IMG/VR virus record: IMGVR_UViG_2534681655_000008
Origin: a virus
Lineage: Duplodnaviria > Heunggongvirae > Uroviricota > Caudoviricetes
DNA: 25,735 bases
Direction: 5' to 3' (one strand)
Numbering within the stretch: the first letter of the stretch is position 1; every line of letters begins with the position of its first letter. Below are positions 1,441-13,105 of the stretch, piece by piece. A model generated the notes under the pieces. That model ran no database searches. It was not told the origin of the DNA and was given only the letters and a program-made list of their open reading frames with translations. The position numbers and the translations under genes are program-made.

Positions 1441-1885
1441 CAAAGCAGTGGCTGTTGTGGTGACCGGTGCTGATCTCCGGCTTGCGGTTATTTCAGACTC
1501 TCACGGGCGTTTAATTGCCCCGCCGAACAGCTCTTTTCCGCAATAGCTGCAATGTCTTTCGCGCATCAGCCTGCGCATTCACCACAACGCTGAGAGCACT
1601 TAGCCAGTTACGGCACCACACTTTGTCGCGGTTCCATAAATGCCCTCATCGTTGCACCCTGGTCTCTTCCCAGGCGTCAAACCGAATCGCCACGCTGGTT
1701 AGGCGTCTTATCAGCATCATCATTGACTTGCACATTCCGGCTACCTGGTTTGTTTGCTCGAGCAAGGAGTGGATTGTCCCCTTTAACGTCACCAGACCGC
1801 TAACGACGCATGTGCCATACGCCGTATTACAACCAAATTTTGTTAGTACCTTGTTTGTTGGTCTGGAAAGAAAGATAAAATGAAG

Positions 1886-1978: not shown

Positions 1979-2671
1979 TTAATTGTGTCGCTTAAGGGTT
2001 TGTGACTGGCTGATTAAGACCTTTCCAAAGACCATAAACCGGTGTTCATTTTCGCTGGTAATTCCCCATTCACGGTAAATCTGGTTATCAGAAATCACCA
2101 GTAGTTTGTCAGGTATCATTTGCAGTCGTTTGACATAAATTTTATCATCAAAACCAAATACATAGATACCATCTCCATCAAACTGATTGATACTGACATC
2201 AACGAAGATGAGATCTCCTGGCTCAATGGTTGGACACATACTGTCCCCACGAACGTTGATAACTTTAATGTGATTGGCTGGTCGTCCGCCAAACATCGAT
2301 ACAGCATTATCAGTTCTGTATTCAATGGCATGAATCACATCAATGACATCACCGCCCTGGATAAGGCCATTTCCCGCACTGGCACTGACATCCAGCATTT
2401 CAATACGGAATACATCCTTCACCTGCGCAACATCCTCACTAATACTGTTTTTACATACAGTATTACTTTTGAAGTCTGAGGTAAAGAGATCAGCAATATC
2501 AACACCTAAACTCCTGGCAATATTACTCAGGGCTTGTTCAGTGAATTGTTTCTGCTTACCTGTTTCCAGGCGCGAGATATTCGCCGCATCCACTCCTATT
2601 GCTTCAGCGAGATCGGCGATTTTCATGTTCTTCGCCTGGCGAAGTTGTCTGACTCGATTTCCTATGTTCAT
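1979..2671 (-). CDS. CI-like prophage repressor (N-terminal HTH_XRE domain, C-terminal S24 LexA-like autopeptidase domain)
   Basis: 230 aa; N-terminus IGNRVRQLRQAKNMKIADLAEAIGVDAANISRLETGK is a typical XRE HTH; C-terminal GDSM serine motif and downstream Lys; divergent from a cro-like gene; no Shine-Dalgarno before the ATG. Confidence 0.85.
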   Translation of the reverse strand: MNIGNRVRQLRQAKNMKIADLAEAIGVDAANISRLETGKQKQFTEQALSNIARSLGVDIADLFTSDFKSNTVCKNSISEDVAQVKDVFRIEMLDVSASAGNGLIQGGDVIDVIHAIEYRTDNAVSMFGGRPANHIKVINVRGDSMCPTIEPGDLIFVDVSINQFDGDGIYVFGFDDKIYVKRLQMIPDKLLVISDNQIYREWGITSENEHRFMVFGKVLISQSQTLKRHN

Positions 2672-7217: not shown

Positions 7218-7603
7218 AGCTGATCCTGCCTTTTCCGCCCAGCGTGAACACGTACTGGCGACACCCCAACAAAGGGGTGTTTGCAGGTAAGAGCCTGATA
7301 AGCGCGGCGGGGCGCAAATTCCAGAGCGCGGCGTGCGCAGCAATAGTTGAGCAGTTACGTCGTCTACCAAAACCAACGTCGGCACCTGCTTCAGTGGAGA
7401 TCGTGTTGTTTCCTCCGGATAACCGGATCCGCGATCTGGACAACTATAACAAGGCGCTGTTTGACGCGTTGACCCACGCGGGTGTGTGGGAAGACGACAG
7501 ACAGGTGAAAAGAATGCTGGTGGAGTGGGGACCGGTTATCCCGAAAGGGAAGGTCGAGATCACCATCAGTAAGTACGAGAAAACGGCGGGTGCAGCCGCC
7601 TGA
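7214..7603 (+). CDS. rusA: Holliday junction resolvase RusA
   Basis: 129 aa; motifs LPFPPSVNTYWRH and DLDNYNKALFDALTHAGVWEDD match the RusA family; ATGA overlap with upstream stop. Confidence 0.8.
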   Translation: MKLILPFPPSVNTYWRHPNKGVFAGKSLISAAGRKFQSAACAAIVEQLRRLPKPTSAPASVEIVLFPPDNRIRDLDNYNKALFDALTHAGVWEDDRQVKRMLVEWGPVIPKGKVEITISKYEKTAGAAA

Positions 7604-7622
7604 TCAAGAGGAGAAACGAAGT

Positions 7623-8420
7623 ATGAATAATCTGATGGTCATTGATGGTATTGAAGTTCGTCGTGATGCTTATGGTCGTTACAGCCTGAACGATCTGCAC
7701 AGGGCTGCCGGTTCTCTGGATAAGCATAAGCCTGCATTCTGGCTCCGCAATGAGCAAACTGAACGTTTAATAAGCGAGTTGCAGATTTGCAACTCGGTCA
7801 ATATAGAGCCAGTTAACGTTATTCGTGGCGGAAATAACCAGGGGACGTATGTCTGCAAAGAACTGGTGTATGCCTATGCAATGTGGATAAGCCCGTCATT
7901 CCATCTGAAGGTGATCCGTACTTTCGACATGGTAACCAGCGCACCGGAAAAATTATCCGGACAGGCTGCTGACAAGATGCAGGCTGGTGTGATTCTGCTG
8001 GACTTTATGCGCCGGGAATTAAACCTGTCTAACTCTTCAGTGCTTGGGGCCTGTCAGAAACTCCAGGAGGCTGTTGGCTTACCGAATCTGGCACCGCGCT
8101 ATGCCATTGATGCTCCTGCTGACGCGCCTGATGGCTCAAGCCGCCCCACGCTGTCACTGAGTGCACTGCTGAAGCAGTATGGTATCCGCCTGACAGCTAA
8201 TCAGGCATATCACCAGATGGCGAAGCTGGGGATCGTTGAACAACGTGAACGATACAGCCGCACTGCGATTAACAACATCAAAAAATTCTGGTCGCTGACG
8301 GCGAAAGGCTGCATGTTCGGCAAGAACATCACCAGTCCCGCAAATCCGCGCGAGACGCAGCCGCATTTCTTCGAATCCCGGTTCCCTGAGCTGTTAAAGC
8401 TGCTCGATACCGTTCATTGA
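7623..8420 (+). CDS. KilA-N domain protein (antirepressor-like)
   Basis: ATG 7623 after GAGGAG; N-terminal LMVIDGIEVRRDAYGRYSLNDLHRAAG...KPAFWLRNEQTERLI typical of KilA-N. Confidence 0.7.
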   Translation: MNNLMVIDGIEVRRDAYGRYSLNDLHRAAGSLDKHKPAFWLRNEQTERLISELQICNSVNIEPVNVIRGGNNQGTYVCKELVYAYAMWISPSFHLKVIRTFDMVTSAPEKLSGQAADKMQAGVILLDFMRRELNLSNSSVLGACQKLQEAVGLPNLAPRYAIDAPADAPDGSSRPTLSLSALLKQYGIRLTANQAYHQMAKLGIVEQRERYSRTAINNIKKFWSLTAKGCMFGKNITSPANPRETQPHFFESRFPELLKLLDTVH

Positions 8421-8421
8421 G

Positions 8422-9417
8422 GTGACCGTGAGAGCGCTACTGACCCCTGAAATTGCCCCGCGTATGGGGATCGTATTGTTCAGGCCAGGTTCAGAGCTGA
8501 TGCCCCTGTTTATGCAGGGGCGTGTCCTGCTGGAGCCTGAGCCGGAACGTTATTCATCTTTCGCCAGTGGTGCCGTTCCGGCTGCATCACAACCGCTGGC
8601 GGATGATCCTGCCGTTTGGGCCGTGTTCCGCAATGAGGCAGTGATTCGTCGTGCTGGTGGAGTGGAATGTCTTGAACGCTGGTTACTTCGTGAAAAAGGT
8701 TGCCAGTGGCCTCATTCCGACTGGCACAGCGAGAACATGACCACAATGCGACACACGCCGGGCGCAATCCGTCTGTGCTGGCACTGCGATAACCAGCTGC
8801 GCGATCAGTTCACGGAACGGCTGGAATCAATGGCAACGGATAACTGTACCCGCTGGGTGTTGTCTGTTGTGCGTCGGGATCTCGGTTTTGATGACAGTCA
8901 CGTTGTGACAATGCCGGAACTGTGCTGGTGGCTGATTCGTAATGACCTGGCGGATGCCTTACCGGAAAGTGCAGCCCGTAAGGCACTGAGATTACCGAAG
9001 CCTGTTGTGCCGTCTGTCACCCGGGAAAGTGACCTTGTGCCTTCGGTTCCTGCCACCAGCATCATCCAGGATAAAGCGAAAAAGGTGCTGGCGCTGAAAG
9101 TGGATCCGGAGTCGCCGGAGTCTTTTATGTTACGCCCAAAACGTCGCCGCTGGGTTAATGAAAAGTACACGCGCTGGGTTAAGACACAGCCGTGTGCATG
9201 TTGTGGAAAGCCTGCTGATGATCCCCACCACCTGATAGGTCACGGTCAGGGAGGAATGGGAACAAAAGCGCATGACCTTTTTGTGTTGCCTTTGTGCAGA
9301 AAGCATCACGACGAGCTGCATGCGGATACCGTGGCATTTGAAGAGAAGTATGGCTCCCAGCTGGAGCTGATATTTCGTTTTATCGATCGTGCGCTGGCAA
9401 TTGGCGTGCTGGCCTGA
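8422..9417 (+). CDS. DUF968-family nin-region protein with C-terminal HNH-like Cys/His motif
   Basis: C-terminal [43 protein letters not shown]; start ambiguous (GTG 8422 or 8428). Confidence 0.6.
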
Positions 9418-9434
9418 TTTTGTGGAGAAAGTTG

Positions 9435-9800
9435 ATGCGTGATATTCAAATGGTTCTTGAACGTTGGGGGGCATGGGTGGCAAATAATCACGAGGATGTC
9501 ACCTGGTCGTCTATTGCTGCAGGATTTAAAGGACTAATCCCTTCAAAAGTAAAATCCCGCCCGCAATGTTGTGACGATGACGCGATGATCATTTGTGGGT
9601 GCATGGCTCGCCTGAAAAAGAACAACAGCGATTTGCACGATTTATTAGTGGATTATTATGTAGGTGGTATGACGTTTATGGCGCTTGCCCGTAAACATGG
9701 GCGTTCTGATTGCTGGGTTGGGCGTTTATTGCAAAAGGCTGAAGGTGTAGTTGATGGCATGTTAATGATGTTAGAAATTGAGCTAGAGATGGATCGTTAG
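9435..9800 (+). CDS. Q: Late-gene antiterminator Q (phage 82 / 21-type)
   Basis: [35 protein letters not shown]...[19 protein letters not shown] matches recalled 82-type Q proteins; GGAG Shine-Dalgarno before ATG 9435. Confidence 0.8.
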
Positions 9801-9842
9801 AAGACCTCTTATTGAGGGGGTAATTGAATCAGTTTAATGTGT

Positions 9843-9864
9843 GGGGAGTCGATTTATTCTCCCC
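9843..9864. other. Hairpin GGGGAG-N10-CTCCCC between Q and the convergent lipoprotein gene, followed on the + strand by an AT-rich run
   Basis: Perfect 6-bp GC stem read from sequence; could terminate either convergent transcript. Confidence 0.4.
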
Positions 9865-9883
9865 ATTTATTTAATTAATTTAC

Positions 9884-10330
9884 TTAAGGTTTTAATTCAT
9901 CAAGACGTTGTTGGATAGTGTTTTTGCTTGCGTTGTCTGTTATAGCCATTTGTTGTACTTGCCCCATTGCCATTTGAGTTTCCATCCACATATCGGCCCA
10001 CACTTTTGTATCGTTATTAACTTGAGCGATAGTAAATCTGACTTTTGATACCGGGGTTGTTGAATAGGCATTTCCGATTAACATTTGTCCAAAAACAGCA
10101 GAGCCGCCTTCCAGTTCTTTACCACATATAACACTGCTGTTATCCGCGTTGTAAATTATCAACCCTCTACTATTGCAGTAATTCACAAGGGCATCTTTGA
10201 CTTTATCTTTTGTCGTATTTTGATAAACCCCCTCAGGTTTTCCTGATTGAGTTTTCTTTATCAATGGTACGGAAGAAGTACAACCTGAAATGATAGTTGC
10301 GCTAAGTAATAGTACAGTCATTTTATTCAT
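9884..10330 (-). CDS. Lipoprotein of unknown function (148 aa), AT-rich moron on the opposite strand
   Basis: Signal peptide MNKMTVLLLSATIISGC with lipobox-like ISGC; visibly AT-rich relative to flanking phage genes; own promoter-like and Shine-Dalgarno-like sequences upstream. Confidence 0.65.
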   Translation of the reverse strand: MNKMTVLLLSATIISGCTSSVPLIKKTQSGKPEGVYQNTTKDKVKDALVNYCNSRGLIIYNADNSSVICGKELEGGSAVFGQMLIGNAYSTTPVSKVRFTIAQVNNDTKVWADMWMETQMAMGQVQQMAITDNASKNTIQQRLDELKP

Positions 10331-10460
10331 GTTTCTTATCCATTGTTAAGGGTATACCCACACAATTATTTTTATTGGAGATGAATAATCAACCGTTTAC
10401 AATCGTAAAAAATCAAATATGCTGTTAAGAGTGGTTACTTCGCCACACAACTTAAACCCG

Positions 10461-10479
10461 CCGCTGAGCGGTTTTTTTT
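10461..10479 (+). terminator. Weak terminator-like hairpin CCGC-TGA-GCGG followed by T8
   Basis: Short stem and T-run read from sequence; upstream of the tRNA promoter. Confidence 0.35.
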
Positions 10480-10560
10480 GTACCTGTAAACTTGGTGCAG
10501 TACAGTAAACACGCTGGTGGACAAGTGAAAAACAGCATTTAATCAGGCCTTCTGAAGATA

Positions 10561-10589
10561 TTGCAGTATTAATTCTGTAACGTTATTAT
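10561..10589 (+). promoter_or_regulatory. Sigma70-like promoter for the tRNA cluster (candidate late promoter): -35 TTGCAG (10561-10566), 17-bp spacer, -10 TATTAT (10584-10589), GC-rich discriminator
   Basis: Hexamers and spacing read from sequence; GCGCGC discriminator immediately before tRNA +1 is typical of stable-RNA promoters. Confidence 0.45.
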
Positions 10590-10598
10590 TCTGCGCGC

Positions 10599-10674
10599 GG
10601 CCCTTTAGCTCAGTGGTGAGAGCGAGCGACTCATAATCGCCAGGTCGCTGGTTCAAATCCAGCAAGGGCCACCA
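10599..10674 (+). tRNA. tRNA with CAU anticodon, tRNA-Ile2 (lysidine type)-like
   Basis: Full cloverleaf folded by hand (7-bp acceptor, D stem GCTC/GAGC, anticodon stem, T stem GCTGG/CCAGC, encoded CCA); near-identical to recalled E. coli ileX. Confidence 0.8.
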
Positions 10675-10675
10675 A

Positions 10676-10752
10676 CTGCCACTAGCTCATCAGGAAAGAG
10701 CGTCAACCCTTTAAGTTGAGAGTGCGAGGTTCGAGTCCCCGGTGGCGGTCCA
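10676..10752 (+). tRNA. Atypical tRNA-like gene, anticodon loop CCUUUAA (nominal anticodon UUU)
   Basis: Cloverleaf folds (acceptor CTGCCAC/GTGGCGG with one G-U, D stem GCTC/GAGC, anticodon stem TCAAC/GTTGA, T loop TTCGAGT, CCA) but C at position 33, C1-G72 and one T-stem mismatch are unusual. Confidence 0.5.
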
Positions 10753-10754
10753 GT

Positions 10755-10830
<76 letters not shown>

Positions 10831-10833
10831 TGT

Positions 10834-10908
<75 letters not shown>

Positions 10909-10913
10909 GTTAG

Positions 10914-11092
10914 AGTCTTTCAGTCTGCGATGATGGGAAATCCCGGAGTGACTGAAAGACGTTTAAGTTATGAATGATCGCTTTTTTTGCAAAATTGCTG
11001 TGCAGAAATACTAACCTTCGGGCAGGCGATCATTCATAAGCACTCTGCTTTTATTCCGATTAACTGTGGGTGGTTTGTTGGATAGAGTGCTT
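10914..11092 (+). other. Highly structured non-coding segment downstream of the tRNAs (three nested inverted repeats); candidate small RNA or processing element
   Basis: Perfect inverted repeats 10915-10925/10950-10960 (11 bp), 10968-10981/11026-11039 (14 bp), 11038-11046/11084-11092 (9 bp); no plausible ORF. Confidence 0.5.
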
Positions 11093-11114
11093 CCCTTACT
11101 GTATATATCGTTTC

Positions 11115-11140
11115 GCCCGCTTTTGCGGGTTTTTCTTTTC
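11115..11140 (+). terminator. Rho-independent terminator (GCCCGC-TTTT-GCGGGT followed by TTTTCTTTTC) upstream of the lysis genes
   Basis: GC stem plus T-rich tail read from sequence. Confidence 0.6.
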
Positions 11141-11199
11141 AAATCCCTTTCATTTCTCAGTGTAAAACTACGCCATCCGTTATTTGCGGAGGTGAGGCT

Positions 11200-11415
11200 A
11201 TGAAATCCATGGACAAAATTTCAACGGGCATTGCCTACGGCACCTCCGCAGGCAGTGCTGGCTACTGGTTTTTACAGTGGCTTGATCAGGTCAGTCCGTC
11301 ACAGTGGGCTGCGATTGGTGTACTGGGGAGTCTGGTGCTGGGCTTCCTGACTTATCTGACAAATCTGTACTTCAAAATAAGAGAAGATAAGCGTAAGGCT
11401 GCACGGGGAGAGTAA
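11200..11415 (+). CDS. Pinholin / antiholin, phage 21 S21-type, dual start motif MKSM
   Basis: [71 protein letters not shown] closely matches recalled S21 (two TMDs, Met1/Met4 dual start). Confidence 0.85.
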
Positions 11416-11419
11416 TTCA

Positions 11420-11764
11420 ATGACACAAAAATATGAACTGATTGTGAAAGGGATCCGCAATTTTGAGAATAAAGTTACGGTAACTTTAGCATTACGGGAC
11501 AAAAAACGCTTTGACGGTGAAATTTTAGACCTGGACATCTCGCTGGACCGTGTTGAAGGTGCCGCGCTGGAGTTTTATGAGGCAGCAGCCAGAAGGAGCA
11601 TCAGACAGGTCTTCCTGGATGTTGCTGCCGGGTTATGTGAAGGGGATGAGCAGTCACCGGAAAAGCGCCCCATAATTTTAGAGGCGCAGGGTGTGTGGAT
11701 AACCTACAAAGGAAAACTGCCGGGAAGAATTACTGGTTCACTGAAGACTCCGCCGAAATGGTAA
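11420..11764 (+). CDS. DUF1327-like (YdfR-like) protein located between holin and endolysin
   Basis: 114 aa, protein-like; same position as ydfR in the E. coli Qin lysis region (recalled); GGGGAGAG ribosome-binding site. Confidence 0.5.
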   Translation: MTQKYELIVKGIRNFENKVTVTLALRDKKRFDGEILDLDISLDRVEGAALEFYEAAARRSIRQVFLDVAAGLCEGDEQSPEKRPIILEAQGVWITYKGKLPGRITGSLKTPPKW

Positions 11765-12002
11765 TTTCACCAGCATATTTTTCTTCCAGTAATACCGCCA
11801 GCCACTTGAAAGAATTTTGTTGTTGCTGGGACCATTTGGGGTTGAGTGATTCAAGCTGGAGCGATGCCAGTGTTGGTTGCATTTGTTCCTTGGGAATTGA
11901 GAATGCCAGATATGAAAATGCGACAGTAAGGGCATTTACATCATCCCGAAGCTTGGAAATGCAGTCGAGCAACTCCTGTAGAGAAATGGTGCTATTGTCC
12001 AT
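11730..12002 (-). CDS. Candidate small protein (90 aa) encoded antisense within the lysis cassette, convergent with and overlapping the DUF1327 gene 3' end by 35 bp
   Basis: ATG 12002 preceded by GAGAGGA Shine-Dalgarno at 6-nt spacing; non-repetitive protein-like composition; local GC lower than neighbours. Confidence 0.4.
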   Translation of the reverse strand: MDNSTISLQELLDCISKLRDDVNALTVAFSYLAFSIPKEQMQPTLASLQLESLNPKWSQQQQNSFKWLAVLLEEKYAGEITISAESSVNQ

Positions 12003-12107
12003 AAACAATCCTCTCTATTGTATTTAACTATTCCTTGCCTGATTCAACAGGCCGGGACAGATAAACATATCCAGGGTTCAGAAACCGATAAATCCTGATA
12101 AATATCC

Positions 12108-12641
12108 ATGAGCGCAAAAATCAAATACGGCCTGTCAGCTGCTGTTCTGGCGCTGATTGCTGCAGGCGCGTCTGCTCCTCAAATACTTGACCAGTTTCTG
12201 GATGAAAAAGAGGGTAACCACACTACGGCATACCGCGATGGTTCCGGTATATGGACCATCTGTCGTGGTGCCACAATGGTGGATGGTAAGCCCGTCATAC
12301 CGGGAATGAAGCTGTCGAAGGAAAAATGCGACCAGGTTAACGCTATTGAACGTGATAAGGCGCTGGCATGGGTGGAGCGCAATATTAAAGTACCACTGAC
12401 CGAACCACAGAAAGCGGGTATAGCGTCATTTTGTCCCTATAACATTGGCCCCGGTAAGTGTTTCCCGTCGACGTTTTATAAGCGGCTGAATGCCGGTGAT
12501 CGTAAGAGTGCATACGAGGCGATTCGCTGGTGGATAAAAGATGGTGGGCGCGATTGCCGCATACGTTCAAATAACTGCTATGGACAGGTTATTCGTCGTG
12601 ACCAGGAAAGCGCATTAGCCTGTTGGGGGATAGATCAGTGA
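12108..12641 (+). CDS. SAR endolysin (T4-lysozyme-like muramidase with N-terminal signal-anchor-release domain)
   Basis: N-terminal Gly/Ala-rich weakly hydrophobic segment [16 protein letters not shown] followed by the catalytic E...D...T region ([22 protein letters not shown]); pairs with pinholin. Confidence 0.8.
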
Positions 12642-13105
12642 GCAGAGTCGCCGCGATTATTTATGCTCTGGTTATCTGCATCATCGTCTGCCTGTCGTGG
12701 GCGGTCAATCATTGCCGTGATAACGCCATCGCCTACAAAGAACAGCGTGATAAAAAAGTCAGTGAGCTGAAGCAGGCGACCGCCACCATTACTGACATGC
12801 AGCAACGCCAGCGTGCTGCTGATGTACTCGATGCTAAATACACGAAGGAGTTGGCTGATGCGAAAGCTGAAAATGATGCTCTTCGGCGCAAGCTTGATAA
12901 TGGTGGTCGGGTGCTCGTCAAAGGAAAATGCTCTGTGCCATCCTCAGCCGAAACCTCCAGCGCCTCCGGCATGGGCAATGATGCCACCGTCGAACTCTCT
13001 CCAGTTGCTGGACGAAACGTTCTCGGTATCCGGGACGGAATCATCAGAGACCAGACAGCACTGAGAACGCTTCAGGAATATATCAGGACGCAATGCCTTC
13101 GATGA
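12638..13105 (+). CDS. Rz-like inner-membrane spanin (i-spanin)
   Basis: GTG 12638 overlapping endolysin stop; N-terminal [18 protein letters not shown] followed by charged coiled-coil-like region; contains an embedded +1-frame lipoprotein ORF. Confidence 0.7.
12858..13064 (+). CDS. Rz1-like outer-membrane lipoprotein spanin (o-spanin) embedded in the +1 frame of Rz
   Basis: AAGGAG Shine-Dalgarno 9 nt before ATG 12858; signal peptide [19 protein letters not shown] with lipobox, then Pro-rich [11 protein letters not shown]. Confidence 0.7.

What the first reader, a model, noticed from the sequence alone, without database searches (positions are those of the whole stretch)
9801..10598. AT-rich lipoprotein moron inserted on the opposite strand between Q and the late promoter / tRNA region
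The 148-aa lipoprotein gene (9884-10330, minus strand) is much more AT-rich than the surrounding phage DNA, runs against the direction of all flanking phage genes, and is bracketed by hairpins (9843-9864 and 10461-10479). This is the classic signature of a horizontally acquired, independently transcribed moron expressed from the prophage. The product is predicted secreted and lipidated, with no family I can assign; a cell-envelope role such as superinfection exclusion, receptor masking or host fitness is plausible but speculative.
Basis: partly seen in the sequence, partly recalled or inferred. Interest (0 to 1): 0.55.

Follow-up and report, generated by a model that had tools for sequence, protein, structure and literature searches.

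The report
Prophage outer-membrane lipoprotein moron beside Q
An E. coli lambda-like prophage carries a self-contained, AT-rich add-on gene for an outer-membrane lipoprotein of a large uncharacterised family; in other phages this gene sits among the tail-tip genes, so it probably acts at the cell envelope, perhaps to keep rival phages out.

Summary
ORF 9884-10330 (minus strand, 148 aa) has 37.8% GC against 51.6% for the window, the lowest in the window. It has a conserved lipobox (ISGC, Cys17) and is under strong purifying selection.

It occupies a roughly 600-bp cassette (about 9795-10394) between a Q21-family antiterminator gene and a conserved promoter-leader-terminator block (10395-10487). 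E. coli K-12 prophage DLP12 holds the porin gene nmpC in the same slot. phiP27 holds a SNIPE/PD-lambda-1-like defence gene there.

One correction: the right-hand "bracketing" hairpin is the plus-strand late-leader terminator, not part of the moron.

The protein has no Pfam or NCBIfam family; its only match is phrog_3152 (function unknown). An exhaustive search found 823 cluster representatives across Proteobacteria.

Of 25 divergent phage-borne copies, 23 lie inside siphovirus tail-tip modules (TMP-M-L-K-I-J), at five different junctions. Most have their own strong terminator. Some share a tail module with a bona fide Cor gene.

The fold is a generic helix-grip/KA1/Flpp3/BamC-like alpha+beta domain.

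Best guess, inferred and not shown: an outer-membrane-anchored periplasmic protein that blocks entry of superinfecting phages. It is a new member of a known kind (envelope moron). Interest is moderate.

The parts
9420..9800 (+). Antiterminator Q gene (126 aa, Q21/QuuD family); left neighbour, convergent with the lipoprotein gene
   Evidence: It matches PF06530 at 2e-51 and Q21 structures 6P18/6JNX at E 7e-9. It is 82.6% identical in DNA to DLP12 quuD. The 3' half of this allele (9594-9800, at least 95% identity) occurs in about 185 complete E. coli genomes, the same number that carry the lipoprotein gene.
9795..10394 (-). The moron cassette (about 600 bp): downstream hairpin, ORF and upstream leader. 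It is the segment absent from DLP12 at this position.
   Evidence: Homology to DLP12 stops at 9794 and resumes at 10395. Homology to vB_EcoS-569R4 stops at 9593 and resumes at 10404. GC of 9801-10598 is 0.373 against 0.516 for the window.
9843..9862 (.). GGGGAG...CTCCCC hairpin between the convergent Q and lipoprotein genes
   Evidence: On the plus strand it folds at -14.4 kcal/mol with z = -3.7, and on the minus strand at -11.3 kcal/mol with z = -2.8. A U-rich tail follows only on the plus strand. It is absent from DLP12, so it is part of the cassette.
9884..10330 (-). 148-aa prolipoprotein gene of an uncharacterised family (phrog_3152)
   Evidence: ORF as listed. It matches phrog_3152 full length at 1.3e-104. 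It has no Pfam, NCBIfam or PADLOC family. It is under purifying selection. It is present in 185 of 5426 complete E. coli genomes, at 99% identity or more in 176. It is also in phages PhiR40_1 and PhiR55_1.
10280..10330 (-). Signal peptide and lipobox codons (M1-C17; lipobox I14-S15-G16-C17; +2 residue Thr)
   Evidence: Cys17 is invariant in A1 and A3. A strict lipobox occurs in 155 of 192 full-length family representatives, and the +2 residue is never Asp.
10365..10392 (-). Candidate sigma-70 promoter of the lipoprotein gene (TTGATT-16-AATAAT), back-to-back with the plus-strand promoter
   Evidence: This is a consensus scan match, 9 of 12. The count of such matches in the region is not above shuffles (7 found, 4.0 +/- 2.4 expected). 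It lies inside the cassette-specific leader 10331-10394. A promoter here is required by strand logic but has not been shown.
10396..10423 (+). Conserved plus-strand promoter (TTTACA-16-TATGCT), inferred to be the late promoter pR'
   Evidence: Consensus scan match. The block 10395-10477 is 85.5% identical to the segment between nmpC and essD in DLP12. It is shared with vB_EcoS-569R4, mEp460_4F5, phage cdtI and phiP27.
10460..10479 (+). Short GC stem plus T8: intrinsic terminator of the late leader (tR'-like).
   Evidence: Terminator scan match on the plus strand. The segment 10455-10520 is conserved in Stx2c phages, mEp460 and Ayreon, where it is annotated 'terminator'. It is not part of the moron.
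10599..10908 (+). Four tRNA genes (CAU, called Met by ARAGORN and Ile by RefSeq; Lys-UUU; Thr-UGU; Gly-UCC); right-hand context
   Evidence: ARAGORN, Rfam and RefSeq annotation. They adjoin the cassette in only 2 of 185 genomes, where the full 798 bases are covered.

Best explanation
Identity (well supported, about 0.9). The region is a self-contained moron cassette of about 600 bp (9795-10394). It sits in the cargo slot between a Q21-family antiterminator gene and its promoter-leader-terminator unit.

The cassette encodes a 148-aa prolipoprotein. Lgt, LspA and Lnt should lipidate it at Cys17. Because residue +2 is Thr and not Asp, the Lol system should deliver it to the inner leaflet of the outer membrane. 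There a roughly 130-residue alpha+beta domain, with a probable C52-C69 disulfide, would face the periplasm.

The gene is on the opposite strand and lies upstream of the late promoter. It can therefore only be transcribed from its own promoter in 10331-10394, so its expression is independent of the lytic programme and is presumably constitutive in the lysogen.

Mechanism (inferred, about 0.45). The lipoprotein acts at the envelope to exclude superinfecting siphophages at or after adsorption. It could do this by binding the periplasmic face of an outer-membrane receptor or channel. Alternatively it could intercept the incoming tail-tip or tape-measure apparatus as it crosses the periplasm. This would make it a functional counterpart of Cor, Llp, Ltp or HK97 gp15, built on an unrelated protein family.

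Shown: composition, mosaic boundaries, lipobox, conservation, family size, fold class, genomic contexts. Inferred: lipidation, outer-membrane location, the disulfide, expression in the lysogen, and the exclusion function.
For: Cassette and slot:
- Flanks are shared and cargo differs in DLP12 (nmpC porin), vB_EcoS-569R4, phage cdtI, mEp460_4F5 and phiP27.
- The phiP27 cargo matches PD-Lambda-1 at 2e-89. That system is now named SNIPE and cleaves phage DNA during injection (PMC13190303).
- The textbook Q cassette is the Q gene directly followed by PR', a pause element and a terminator (bioRxiv 10.1101/651190).

Lipoprotein:
- Cys17 and the lipobox are invariant.
- The +2 residue is never Asp in 155 lipobox-bearing family representatives.
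- C52 and C69 are invariant.

Real gene:
- dN/dS is 0.07-0.26.
- 823 family representatives were found.

Linkage to the entry apparatus:
- 23 of 25 divergent IMG/VR homologues lie inside the TMP-M-L-K-I-J module, at five different junctions, co-oriented with the tail genes. The same holds in Salmonella, Jejubacter, Proteus and Haemophilus prophages.
- One copy sits in the TAC-TMP slot. That is where the HK97 gene 15 exclusion moron sits (PMC3594210).

Moron anatomy across the family:
- 14 of 18 cassettes end in their own strong GC-stem plus T-run terminator just before the next tail gene.
- Their upstream leaders are AT-rich.
- The gene is more AT-rich than its flanks in all 7 hosts checked.

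A signal peptide rules out a virion or cytoplasmic assembly role.
Against: - There is no experimental or expression evidence of any kind.
- Cor is encoded separately in the same tail module in at least six phages. The family is therefore not simply a Cor substitute, and its target is unknown.
- Simple consensus scans did not find clear promoters upstream of several tail-module copies. Those copies may be mainly late-expressed, which would suit a lytic-cycle role better.
- Longer relatives exist, some with a PDZ domain and an ordinary signal peptide rather than a lipobox. Some family loci have housekeeping neighbours and so are probably chromosomal. The domain's ancestral role is therefore not phage exclusion.
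- Tail-module counts include closely related contigs and are not independent events.
- The E. coli copy lacks a canonical terminator on its own strand.
Confidence: 0.45

Rival explanations
1. It is a lysogenic-conversion fitness or virulence factor with no role in phage exclusion. On this reading the outer-membrane lipoprotein benefits the host in some other way, such as serum resistance, adhesion, envelope-stress tolerance or lipid/ligand binding, as Bor does in lambda and DLP12.
For: - The architecture is the same as bor: a small outer-membrane lipoprotein gene on the opposite strand near the lysis region. DLP12 carries bor in this arrangement.
- The slot also hosts nmpC, a porin, which is a host-physiology gene.
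- Carriers include the uropathogen UTI89 and an O157:H7 strain; listed sources include poultry, cattle, pigs and humans.
- Homologues with housekeeping neighbours exist.
Against: - It does not explain why homologues are embedded in the tail-tip operon at five different junctions.
- There is no Lambda_Bor (PF06291) match.
- The gene is present in only 3.4% of complete E. coli genomes, with no evident pathotype restriction.
Confidence: 0.2
2. It has a lytic-cycle function. On this reading it is made late with the tail genes and inactivates or masks the receptor or envelope component on the dying cell and its debris. Progeny virions are then not lost by adsorbing to the debris (the second role described for T5 Llp). 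Alternatively it conditions the outer membrane for release.
For: - In 23 of 25 divergent phage copies the gene is co-oriented inside the late tail operon.
- Consensus promoters upstream are weak or undetected in several of these, so late read-through would be their main expression.
- The terminators after the gene would be ignored by Q-modified RNA polymerase.
Against: - In E. coli the gene is antisense to all phage transcription and upstream of the late promoter, so late transcription cannot express it.
- Most cassettes carry their own terminator and an AT-rich leader. That is the moron design for expression from a repressed prophage (PMC3594210).
- This rival overlaps mechanistically with the main explanation, since both involve masking a receptor or entry route.
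Confidence: 0.15
3. It is a periplasmic immunity or inhibitor protein against non-phage attack. Possible targets are colicins, tailocins, or type VI peptidoglycan-hydrolase or lipase effectors, or a peptidoglycan hydrolase such as the NlpC/P60-type tail protein K.
For: - Periplasm-facing lipoproteins are a common form of immunity protein (my own knowledge, not a tool result).
- The gene often lies directly beside the NlpC/P60-domain tail protein K or a K-like DUF6950 protein.
- Conserved polar loop motifs (TxSGxPE, GNxYSTTP, ETQMAxGQ) suggest a defined binding surface.
- Some homologues sit next to toxin-antitoxin genes on islands.
Against: - No cognate toxin or effector gene is conserved next to it, and there is no conserved neighbour at all.
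- There is no similarity to known immunity or lysozyme-inhibitor families.
Confidence: 0.1
4. It is a decaying or hitch-hiking ORF with no current function.
For: It is AT-rich, annotated only as a hypothetical protein, and lacks a canonical terminator in E. coli.
Against: - Purifying selection is strong.
- The reading frame is intact at 99% identity or more in 176 genomes.
- The family has 823 representatives with invariant Cys and motif residues.
Confidence: 0.03

Closest known systems
nmpC / lc porin moron of prophage DLP12 (and phage PA-2)
   Same: It occupies the same genomic slot and orientation. It is a minus-strand gene for an outer-membrane protein between a Q21-family Q gene (quuD, 82.6% identical to the window's Q) and the same conserved promoter-leader-terminator block upstream of the holin (85.5% identical to window 10395-10477).
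   Different: NmpC is a 16-strand porin of about 365 aa, not a lipoprotein, and the sequences are unrelated. The mention of PA-2 lc rests on my own knowledge, not on a tool result.
Cor (phi80/N15/HK022/T1) and Llp (T5) superinfection-exclusion lipoproteins
   Same: They are small prophage- or phage-encoded outer-membrane lipoproteins genetically linked to tail-tip or receptor-binding genes. They are expressed to block entry through the phage's own receptor (their function is taken from the literature: PMC3594210, and my own knowledge).
   Different: There is no sequence relationship: the PHROG scan hits only phrog_3152, not Cor phrog_1119. The mature protein is about twice as large and has a different predicted fold. 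Cor is encoded as a separate gene downstream of J in the same tail module in at least six phages. The family sits inside the TMP-J operon rather than downstream of J.
HK97 gene 15 moron (gp15 exclusion protein)
   Same: It is the prototype moron, with its own promoter and terminator and deviant GC, lying between the tail assembly chaperone and tape-measure genes (PMC3594210). One family member (P0097, L058) sits in exactly that slot with its own terminator.
   Different: gp15 is a small inner-membrane protein of the YebO family. It is not a lipoprotein and is unrelated in sequence.
Bor (lambda/DLP12 serum-resistance lipoprotein)
   Same: It is an outer-membrane lipoprotein moron on the opposite strand in the late region of lambdoid prophages, expressed in the lysogen. 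DLP12 bor appears.
   Different: There is no PF06291 match. Bor lies downstream of Rz rather than between Q and pR', and it is a smaller protein.
Flpp3/DUF3568, BamC N-domain, DUF4468 and KA1/SRPBCC helix-grip folds
   Different: The similarity is at fold level only: TM about 0.4, 6-12% identity, and no profile match to any solved structure. It is not evidence of shared function.
SNIPE / PD-lambda-1
   Same: A SNIPE-like gene occupies the same Q-to-pR' slot in phiP27. Like the role proposed here, SNIPE acts at the envelope during genome injection and engages the tape-measure protein (PMC13190303).
   Different: SNIPE is an inner-membrane GIY-YIG-type nuclease. The lipoprotein has no nuclease domain and no PADLOC match.

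Membership tests
Moron (Juhala/Hendrix sense) | An extra segment present in one phage and absent at the same place in close relatives | tested here: met
   DLP12, vB_EcoS-569R4, phage cdtI, mEp460_4F5 and phiP27 share the flanks but carry other cargo. The same gene is found at at least seven other positions in other prophages.
Moron (Juhala/Hendrix sense) | Base composition different from the surrounding phage genes | tested here: met
   GC is 0.378 against 0.516, the lowest 1.4% of windows. The gene is also lower than its flanks in all 7 other hosts checked.
Moron (Juhala/Hendrix sense) | Own promoter | tested here: inconclusive
   TTGATT-16-AATAAT at 10392-10365 is only a 9 of 12 consensus match, and such matches are not enriched over shuffles. 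A promoter in 10331-10394 is required by strand logic. AT-rich leaders precede other copies, but the scans were mostly negative.
Moron (Juhala/Hendrix sense) | Own terminator | tested here: inconclusive
   In the window copy, hairpin 9843-9862 has no U-run on the gene's strand. Elsewhere in the family, 14 of 18 cassettes have a canonical terminator right after the stop codon.
Moron (Juhala/Hendrix sense) | Expressed from the repressed prophage | not testable with these tools
   No transcriptome or proteome data were found for this gene.
Bacterial lipoprotein (Lgt/LspA substrate), outer-membrane sorted | N-terminal signal peptide ending in a lipobox [LVI][ASTVI][GAS]C | tested here: met
   The N-terminus is MNK, then the hydrophobic stretch MTVLLLSATI, then I-S-G-C17. 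Cys17 is invariant. A strict lipobox occurs in 155 of 192 family representatives, and most of the rest have variant lipoboxes. The Pfam LPAM_1 match is weak (E 0.22).
Bacterial lipoprotein (Lgt/LspA substrate), outer-membrane sorted | No Asp at +2 (the Lol-avoidance signal in E. coli) | tested here: met
   The +2 residue is Thr in the window. Among 155 homologues it is Ala 106, Val 16, Thr 14 and Asp 0.
Bacterial lipoprotein (Lgt/LspA substrate), outer-membrane sorted | Actual acylation and outer-membrane localisation | not testable with these tools
   This needs globomycin or palmitate labelling and cell fractionation.
Cor superinfection-exclusion family (phrog_1119) | Sequence membership | tested here: not met
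   The PHROG scan at E up to 1 gives phrog_3152 only. A true Cor (2e-27) is a separate gene in the same phages.
Bor (PF06291) and any other annotated envelope moron family | Sequence membership | tested here: not met
   No Pfam, NCBIfam or PADLOC match was found.
o-spanin (Rz1-type) | A short, proline-rich mature lipoprotein encoded within or next to the i-spanin gene of the lysis cassette | tested here: not met
   PHROG spanin hits (E 0.02-0.035) cover residues 1-45 only, the signal peptide. The gene lies 2.3 kb upstream of Rz on the other strand and encodes a folded domain of about 130 residues. Homologues lie in tail modules.
DUF3568/Flpp3, BamC, DUF4468, SRPBCC/KA1 fold families | Profile-level sequence homology | tested here: not met
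phrog_3152 (function unknown) | Full-length profile match | tested here: met
   E 1.3e-104, residues 1-148 against profile positions 1-148 of 148.
Q-dependent late regulatory cassette (context) | Q gene followed by PR', a pause element and a terminator ahead of the late genes | tested here: inconclusive
   The Q21-family Q is confirmed. A conserved promoter-like site plus terminator block lies at 10395-10487, shared with DLP12 upstream of essD. The Q-binding and pause elements were not identified, and promoter activity was not tested. The cassette is split by 0.6 kb of cargo, unlike the textbook layout.

The most novel reading that the evidence does not exclude
The family (phrog_3152 and its roughly 800 cluster representatives, currently with no Pfam entry) is a previously unrecognised, widespread class of tail-tip-module-linked outer-membrane lipoproteins. 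On this reading they block siphophage genome entry from the periplasmic side, for example by engaging the incoming tape-measure or tip complex or the periplasmic face of the receptor. This would be a Gram-negative counterpart of the streptococcal lipoprotein Ltp. It would act alongside Cor rather than replacing it. In E. coli the gene would have been relocated to the Q-to-pR' defence hotspot.
Probability: 0.35. Interest if true: 0.62.

Novelty: new member of a known kind. Interest (0 to 1): 0.42.

Why it matters
Taken alone, this is a textbook moron: an AT-rich gene on the opposite strand, with its own leader, coding for an envelope protein, in a known cargo slot. Follow-up work turned up three things of wider use.

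1. The lipoprotein belongs to a large family: 823 representatives at 50% clustering, spread across Proteobacteria and some fused to PDZ domains. It has no Pfam entry and no characterised member.
2. Its phage-borne copies are repeatedly inserted inside the TMP-M-L-K-I-J tail-tip operon, at five different junctions. This gives a concrete, cheap-to-test hypothesis that it interferes with phage entry.
3. The interval between Q21-type Q genes and their late promoter is a recurrent hotspot. It holds a porin, a SNIPE-like entry nuclease and several unknown one- or two-gene cassettes, and could be mined for new defence or conversion genes.

Inducible carrier phages (PhiR40.1, PhiR55.1) already exist in a published collection, so the experiment is straightforward.

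Tried and rejected
Approaches that gave nothing:

- Family searches. Pfam, NCBIfam and PADLOC scans of the protein found no family. The UniRef name "VirB7" on a Xenorhabdus homologue probably reflects only the lipobox and was disregarded.
- Structure comparisons. The profile search against PDB sequences found nothing. Foldseek against PDB and BFVD gave only weak, generic helix-grip matches with TM about 0.3-0.45. The afdb50 library was unavailable.
I replaced it with a degenerate ETQMA[MF]GQ DNA pattern scan.
- Conserved neighbours. The neighbours of 29 genome loci show no recurrent partner gene.
- RNA families. Rfam found only the tRNAs in 9300-11300.
- Literature. Nothing was found on WP_001038608 or PhiR40_1. 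The source paper of the PhiR phages (Brenes and Laub 2025, Cell Host Microbe) is not held and could not be read. It may contain relevant screening data.

Readings considered and rejected:

- o-spanin: the PHROG hits cover only the signal peptide, and the location is wrong.
- A Cor orthologue: Cor is a separate gene in the same phages.
- Late promoter immediately downstream of Q, with the gene lying antisense inside the late leader: there is no promoter-like site in 9801-9842, and the conserved promoter block lies at 10396-10423, as in DLP12.
- The hairpins as the moron's own bracketing terminators: the right one belongs to the late leader, and the left one lacks a U-run on the gene's strand.
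Full report
**1. Observation.**
The window is an E. coli lambdoid prophage. It is 99.9% identical over the finding to strain 510016.

The local gene order on the plus strand is:
- KilA-N, 7590-8420
- DUF968, 8422-9417
- Q, 9420-9800
- four tRNAs, 10599-10908
- holin, 11200-11415
- YdfR, 11420-11764
- lysozyme, 12108-12641
- Rz, 12623-13105

The 148-aa ORF at 9884-10330 runs the other way.

- ORF GC is 0.378 and the finding as a whole is 0.373, against 0.516 for the window.
- The ORF falls in the lowest 1.4% of 447-bp windows, and the window's GC minimum lies here.
- GC3 is 0.32 against 0.44-0.56 in neighbouring genes.

Both hairpins exist.
- 9843-9862 is strong: -14.4 kcal/mol, z = -3.7. Its U-rich tail lies on the plus strand, and no U-run follows on the gene's own strand.
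- 10460-10472 plus T8 is a short plus-strand terminator-like site.

**2. Anatomy of the locus.**
Pairwise comparisons define a cassette.
- DLP12 of E. coli K-12 is homologous through Q up to 9794 (82.6% identity) and again from 10395 to 10477 (85.5%). In DLP12 the interval between holds IS5 plus the porin gene nmpC on the minus strand, and the conserved block lies just upstream of essD.
- Phage vB_EcoS-569R4 shares 8832-9593 and 10404-10520 and carries two other minus-strand genes between them.
- Ayreon and the Stx2c phages share only 10455-10520. In Ayreon this segment is annotated as a terminator.

The conserved block has three parts: a sigma-70-like promoter (TTTACA-16-TATGCT, 10396-10423), a conserved leader, and a GC stem plus T-run. 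Q belongs to PF06530 and is related to the structurally characterised Q21.

In the textbook Q cassette, the Q gene is followed directly by PR', a pause element and a terminator (bioRxiv 10.1101/651190). I therefore read 10395-10487 as the late promoter, leader and tR'.

The moron is about 9795-10394. It comprises the hairpin, the ORF and a 64-bp private leader. The leader holds a candidate minus-strand promoter (TTGATT-16-AATAAT, 10392-10365). Its -35 element lies 3 bp from the -35 of the plus-strand promoter, back to back. This promoter is only a consensus match. No minus-strand gene lies upstream and all phage transcription runs the other way, so some promoter must lie in this leader if the gene is expressed at all.

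**3. The slot is a cargo hotspot.**
The interval between a Q21-type Q gene and the conserved block holds different cargo in different elements:

| Element | Cargo in the slot |
|---|---|
| DLP12 | nmpC porin (minus strand) |
| vB_EcoS-569R4 | 182-aa and 286-aa ORFs (minus strand) |
| phage cdtI | orf53 and orf54, the latter DUF6731 (minus strand) |
| mEp460_4F5 | 308-aa ORF, phrog_2802 (minus strand) |
| phiP27 | 409-aa GIY-YIG/T5orf172 protein (plus strand) |

The phiP27 protein matches PD-Lambda-1 at 2e-89. PD-lambda-1 has since been renamed SNIPE. It is a membrane nuclease that cuts phage DNA during injection (PMC13190303).

In E. coli the lipoprotein gene is present in 185 of 5426 complete genomes, at 99% identity or more in 176. 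The 3' half of this Q allele, at 95% identity or more, is found in essentially the same number of genomes. Q and the cassette therefore travel together. To the right of 10520 the sequence varies: tRNAs here, a DNA methylase in UTI89 and PhiR40_1, and an O157-type late region in strain NE1092-2.

**4. The protein.**
*Signal peptide and sorting.* The N-terminus has a short charged stretch (MNK), a hydrophobic core and the lipobox I-S-G-C17. Cys17 is invariant. A strict lipobox occurs in 155 of 192 full-length family representatives, and the +2 residue is never Asp. By the E. coli Lol rule this predicts an outer-membrane lipoprotein facing the periplasm.

*Conserved residues.* C52 and C69 are invariant, so a disulfide is plausible. 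Three polar motifs are conserved: TxSGxPE, IGNxYSTTP and ETQMAxGQ.

*Selection.* Against the Salmonella copy, pN is 0.18 and pS is 0.80. Between the Salmonella and Jejubacter copies, dN/dS is 0.07.

*Family size.* The protein has no Pfam, NCBIfam or PADLOC family and matches only phrog_3152, of unknown function. The word-indexed search found about 30 relatives. The exhaustive profile search found 823 cluster representatives at E of 1e-3 or better, and 408 at 1e-10 or better. Members occur in Enterobacterales, Haemophilus, Halomonas, Stenotrophomonas, sphingomonads, Caulobacter and others. Of 91 representatives scanned, 15 carry a C-terminal PDZ domain.

**5. Contexts elsewhere.**
Closer homologues are all on mobile elements, at different positions:
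- between tail genes K and I in a Salmonella prophage
- in a moron cluster before I and J in Jejubacter
- in the nin region in Phytobacter
- next to portal and DUF927 genes in Cribrihabitans
- on a P4-like island with AlpA, DUF927, HicAB and an integrase
- next to Phd/PIN toxin-antitoxin genes, for a PDZ-bearing form

A scan of IMG/VR gave 76 loci. Fifty are the E. coli type; Q is adjacent in 48, and in the other two the contig ends or an extra ORF intervenes. The other 25 are divergent, at 40-70% identity. Of these, 23 lie inside the siphovirus tail-tip module, co-oriented with the tail genes:

| Junction | Loci |
|---|---|
| TMP-x-M | 8 |
| M-x-L | 2 |
| K-x-I | 9 |
| distal tail protein-x-K-like-J | 3 |
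| upstream of TMP | 1 |

Pfam and PHROG annotation confirmed these neighbours in Proteus, Haemophilus and an unnamed enterobacterium.

In 14 of 18 representative cassettes, a canonical GC-stem plus T-run terminator follows the stop codon directly, just before the next tail gene. The terminator sequences differ between lineages. The upstream leaders are AT-rich. The gene is more AT-rich than its flanks in all seven hosts checked. This is the moron design described for HK97 gene 15, which sits in the chaperone-tape-measure slot (PMC3594210).

A bona fide Cor gene (phrog_1119, 2e-27) lies downstream of J in the Jejubacter locus L007; phmmer also finds Cor in L118 (the same sequence context as L007) and in L135-L138. 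The family therefore accompanies Cor rather than replacing it. PhiR40_1 has a lambda-like tail with Lom and Stf and no Cor. No neighbouring gene is conserved across the family.

**6. Mechanism.**
What is shown:
- It is a horizontally mobile, single-gene cassette.
- It encodes an exported, lipobox-bearing protein under purifying selection.
- In E. coli it is placed where only its own promoter can express it.

What is inferred:
- It is lipidated and delivered to the outer membrane by Lol.
- It has a periplasmic disulfide.
- It is expressed in the lysogen.

Evidence for an envelope-level block to superinfecting siphophages (about 0.45):
- The protein is exported, so it cannot be a virion or assembly component.
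- It is nonetheless linked again and again to the genes of the apparatus that crosses the envelope.
- Known envelope morons linked to tail genes (Cor, Llp, Lom, gp15) include exclusion proteins.
- The E. coli slot also hosts an entry-stage defence gene.

Evidence against:
- There are no functional data.
- It has no similarity to any known exclusion protein.
- It coexists with Cor.
- Promoters are weak or undetected before several tail-module copies.
- Some relatives appear to be chromosomal (housekeeping neighbours), and some carry a PDZ domain.

Rivals:
- a Bor-like host-fitness factor (0.2)
- a late lytic role, such as masking receptors on debris (0.15)
- immunity to, or inhibition of, non-phage envelope attack or peptidoglycan hydrolases (0.1)
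- a functionless remnant (0.03, contradicted by conservation)

**7. Comparison and novelty.**
In architecture and location, the closest known case is nmpC of DLP12, which occupies the same slot. In likely function, the closest are Cor, Llp, gp15 and Ltp. Membership of every one of these families was tested by profile search and not met. The gene is catalogued but uncharacterised. As a feature it is a new member of a known kind: an envelope moron in a lambdoid prophage.

The more interesting results are at family level. The domain family is large and has no Pfam entry, and it is embedded in tail-tip operons to a striking degree. The Q-to-pR' interval is also a recurrent cargo and defence hotspot.

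**8. Limits.**
- I could not inspect the model coordinates.
- The afdb50 library was unavailable.
- The paper that described the PhiR phages (Brenes and Laub 2025) is not held.
- The tail-module counts include related contigs and are not independent insertion events.

Noticed in passing
window 9801-10394; L004 958-2353; L065 2012-3400; L066 1750-2979; L067 1993-2919; L064 5623-7711: The interval between Q21-family Q genes and the conserved late promoter/terminator block is a recurrent cargo hotspot. It holds the nmpC porin in DLP12 and a SNIPE/PD-lambda-1-like nuclease in phiP27. It also holds uncharacterised cassettes in phage cdtI (orf53/orf54, DUF6731), vB_EcoS-569R4 (182 and 286 aa) and mEp460_4F5 (308 aa, phrog_2802). 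Except for the phiP27 gene, the main cargo genes are on the minus strand, and none of the unknown ones matches PADLOC.
   Followed up: partly
window 10599-10908: The four phage tRNAs have anticodons CAU, UUU, UGU and UCC. ARAGORN calls the first Met, but RefSeq annotates it as Ile, which implies lysidine modification. On the Ile reading all four decode A-ending codons (AUA, AAA, ACA, GGA). The lipoprotein gene uses these codons heavily (ATA 4 of 10 Ile, AAA 11 of 12 Lys, ACA 4 of 13 Thr, GGA 3 of 10 Gly), and the lysozyme gene uses ATA for 7 of 15 Ile. The tRNA cluster adjoins the cassette in only 2 of 185 genomes.
   Followed up: partly
window 10365-10423: The candidate promoter of the lipoprotein gene and the conserved plus-strand (late) promoter are divergent and back to back, with their -35 hexamers 3 bp apart. 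The lipoprotein transcript has no canonical terminator before it would run antisense into Q. Either feature could couple moron expression to Q or late-promoter activity.
   Followed up: no
L007 12030-12260; L118, L135-L138 (about 11.4-12.3 kb): A bona fide Cor exclusion lipoprotein (phrog_1119) is encoded downstream of J in the same tail modules that carry the family lipoprotein between K and I. These phages would therefore carry two different outer-membrane lipoprotein morons in one tail operon.
   Followed up: partly
L011, L014, L019, L022, L048 (Stenotrophomonas); L018, L026, L042, L046 (alphaproteobacteria); plasmid NZ_CP031358.1: Longer family members of 250-320 aa occur in these loci, and most of them have an ordinary signal peptide rather than a lipobox. 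In the separate set of 91 family representatives scanned, 15 carry a C-terminal PDZ domain, and the Erythrobacter plasmid hit is annotated as a PDZ domain-containing protein. Some family loci have housekeeping neighbours (for example GlnE in L047), which suggests chromosomal members. This suggests an ancestral envelope-protein-binding role for the domain.
   Followed up: partly
window 11730-12008 (minus strand): A 92-aa minus-strand ORF overlaps the end of the YdfR-family gene. RefSeq annotates it as a hypothetical protein in strain 510016. It is the only other minus-strand call in the late region.
   Followed up: no
window 11112-11138: A second strong plus-strand terminator-like site (GCCCGC-TTTT-GCGGGT plus a T-run) lies between the tRNAs and the holin gene. 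Late transcription would therefore have to pass two terminators.
   Followed up: no
window about 1771-2320: This is the only other stretch of the window with GC below 0.40 in 447-bp windows. It lies next to ORFs 1515-1883 (+) and 1979-2671 (-), probably the immunity region. It may be another acquired segment.
   Followed up: no
L001 8308-11182 versus window 12108-13105: In strain 510016, the nearest database match, the prophage lysozyme gene is truncated by IS21-family (ISEc62) and IS1 elements and the prophage ends next to valS. The window itself has an intact lysozyme/Rz cassette followed by terminase and portal genes.
   Followed up: no
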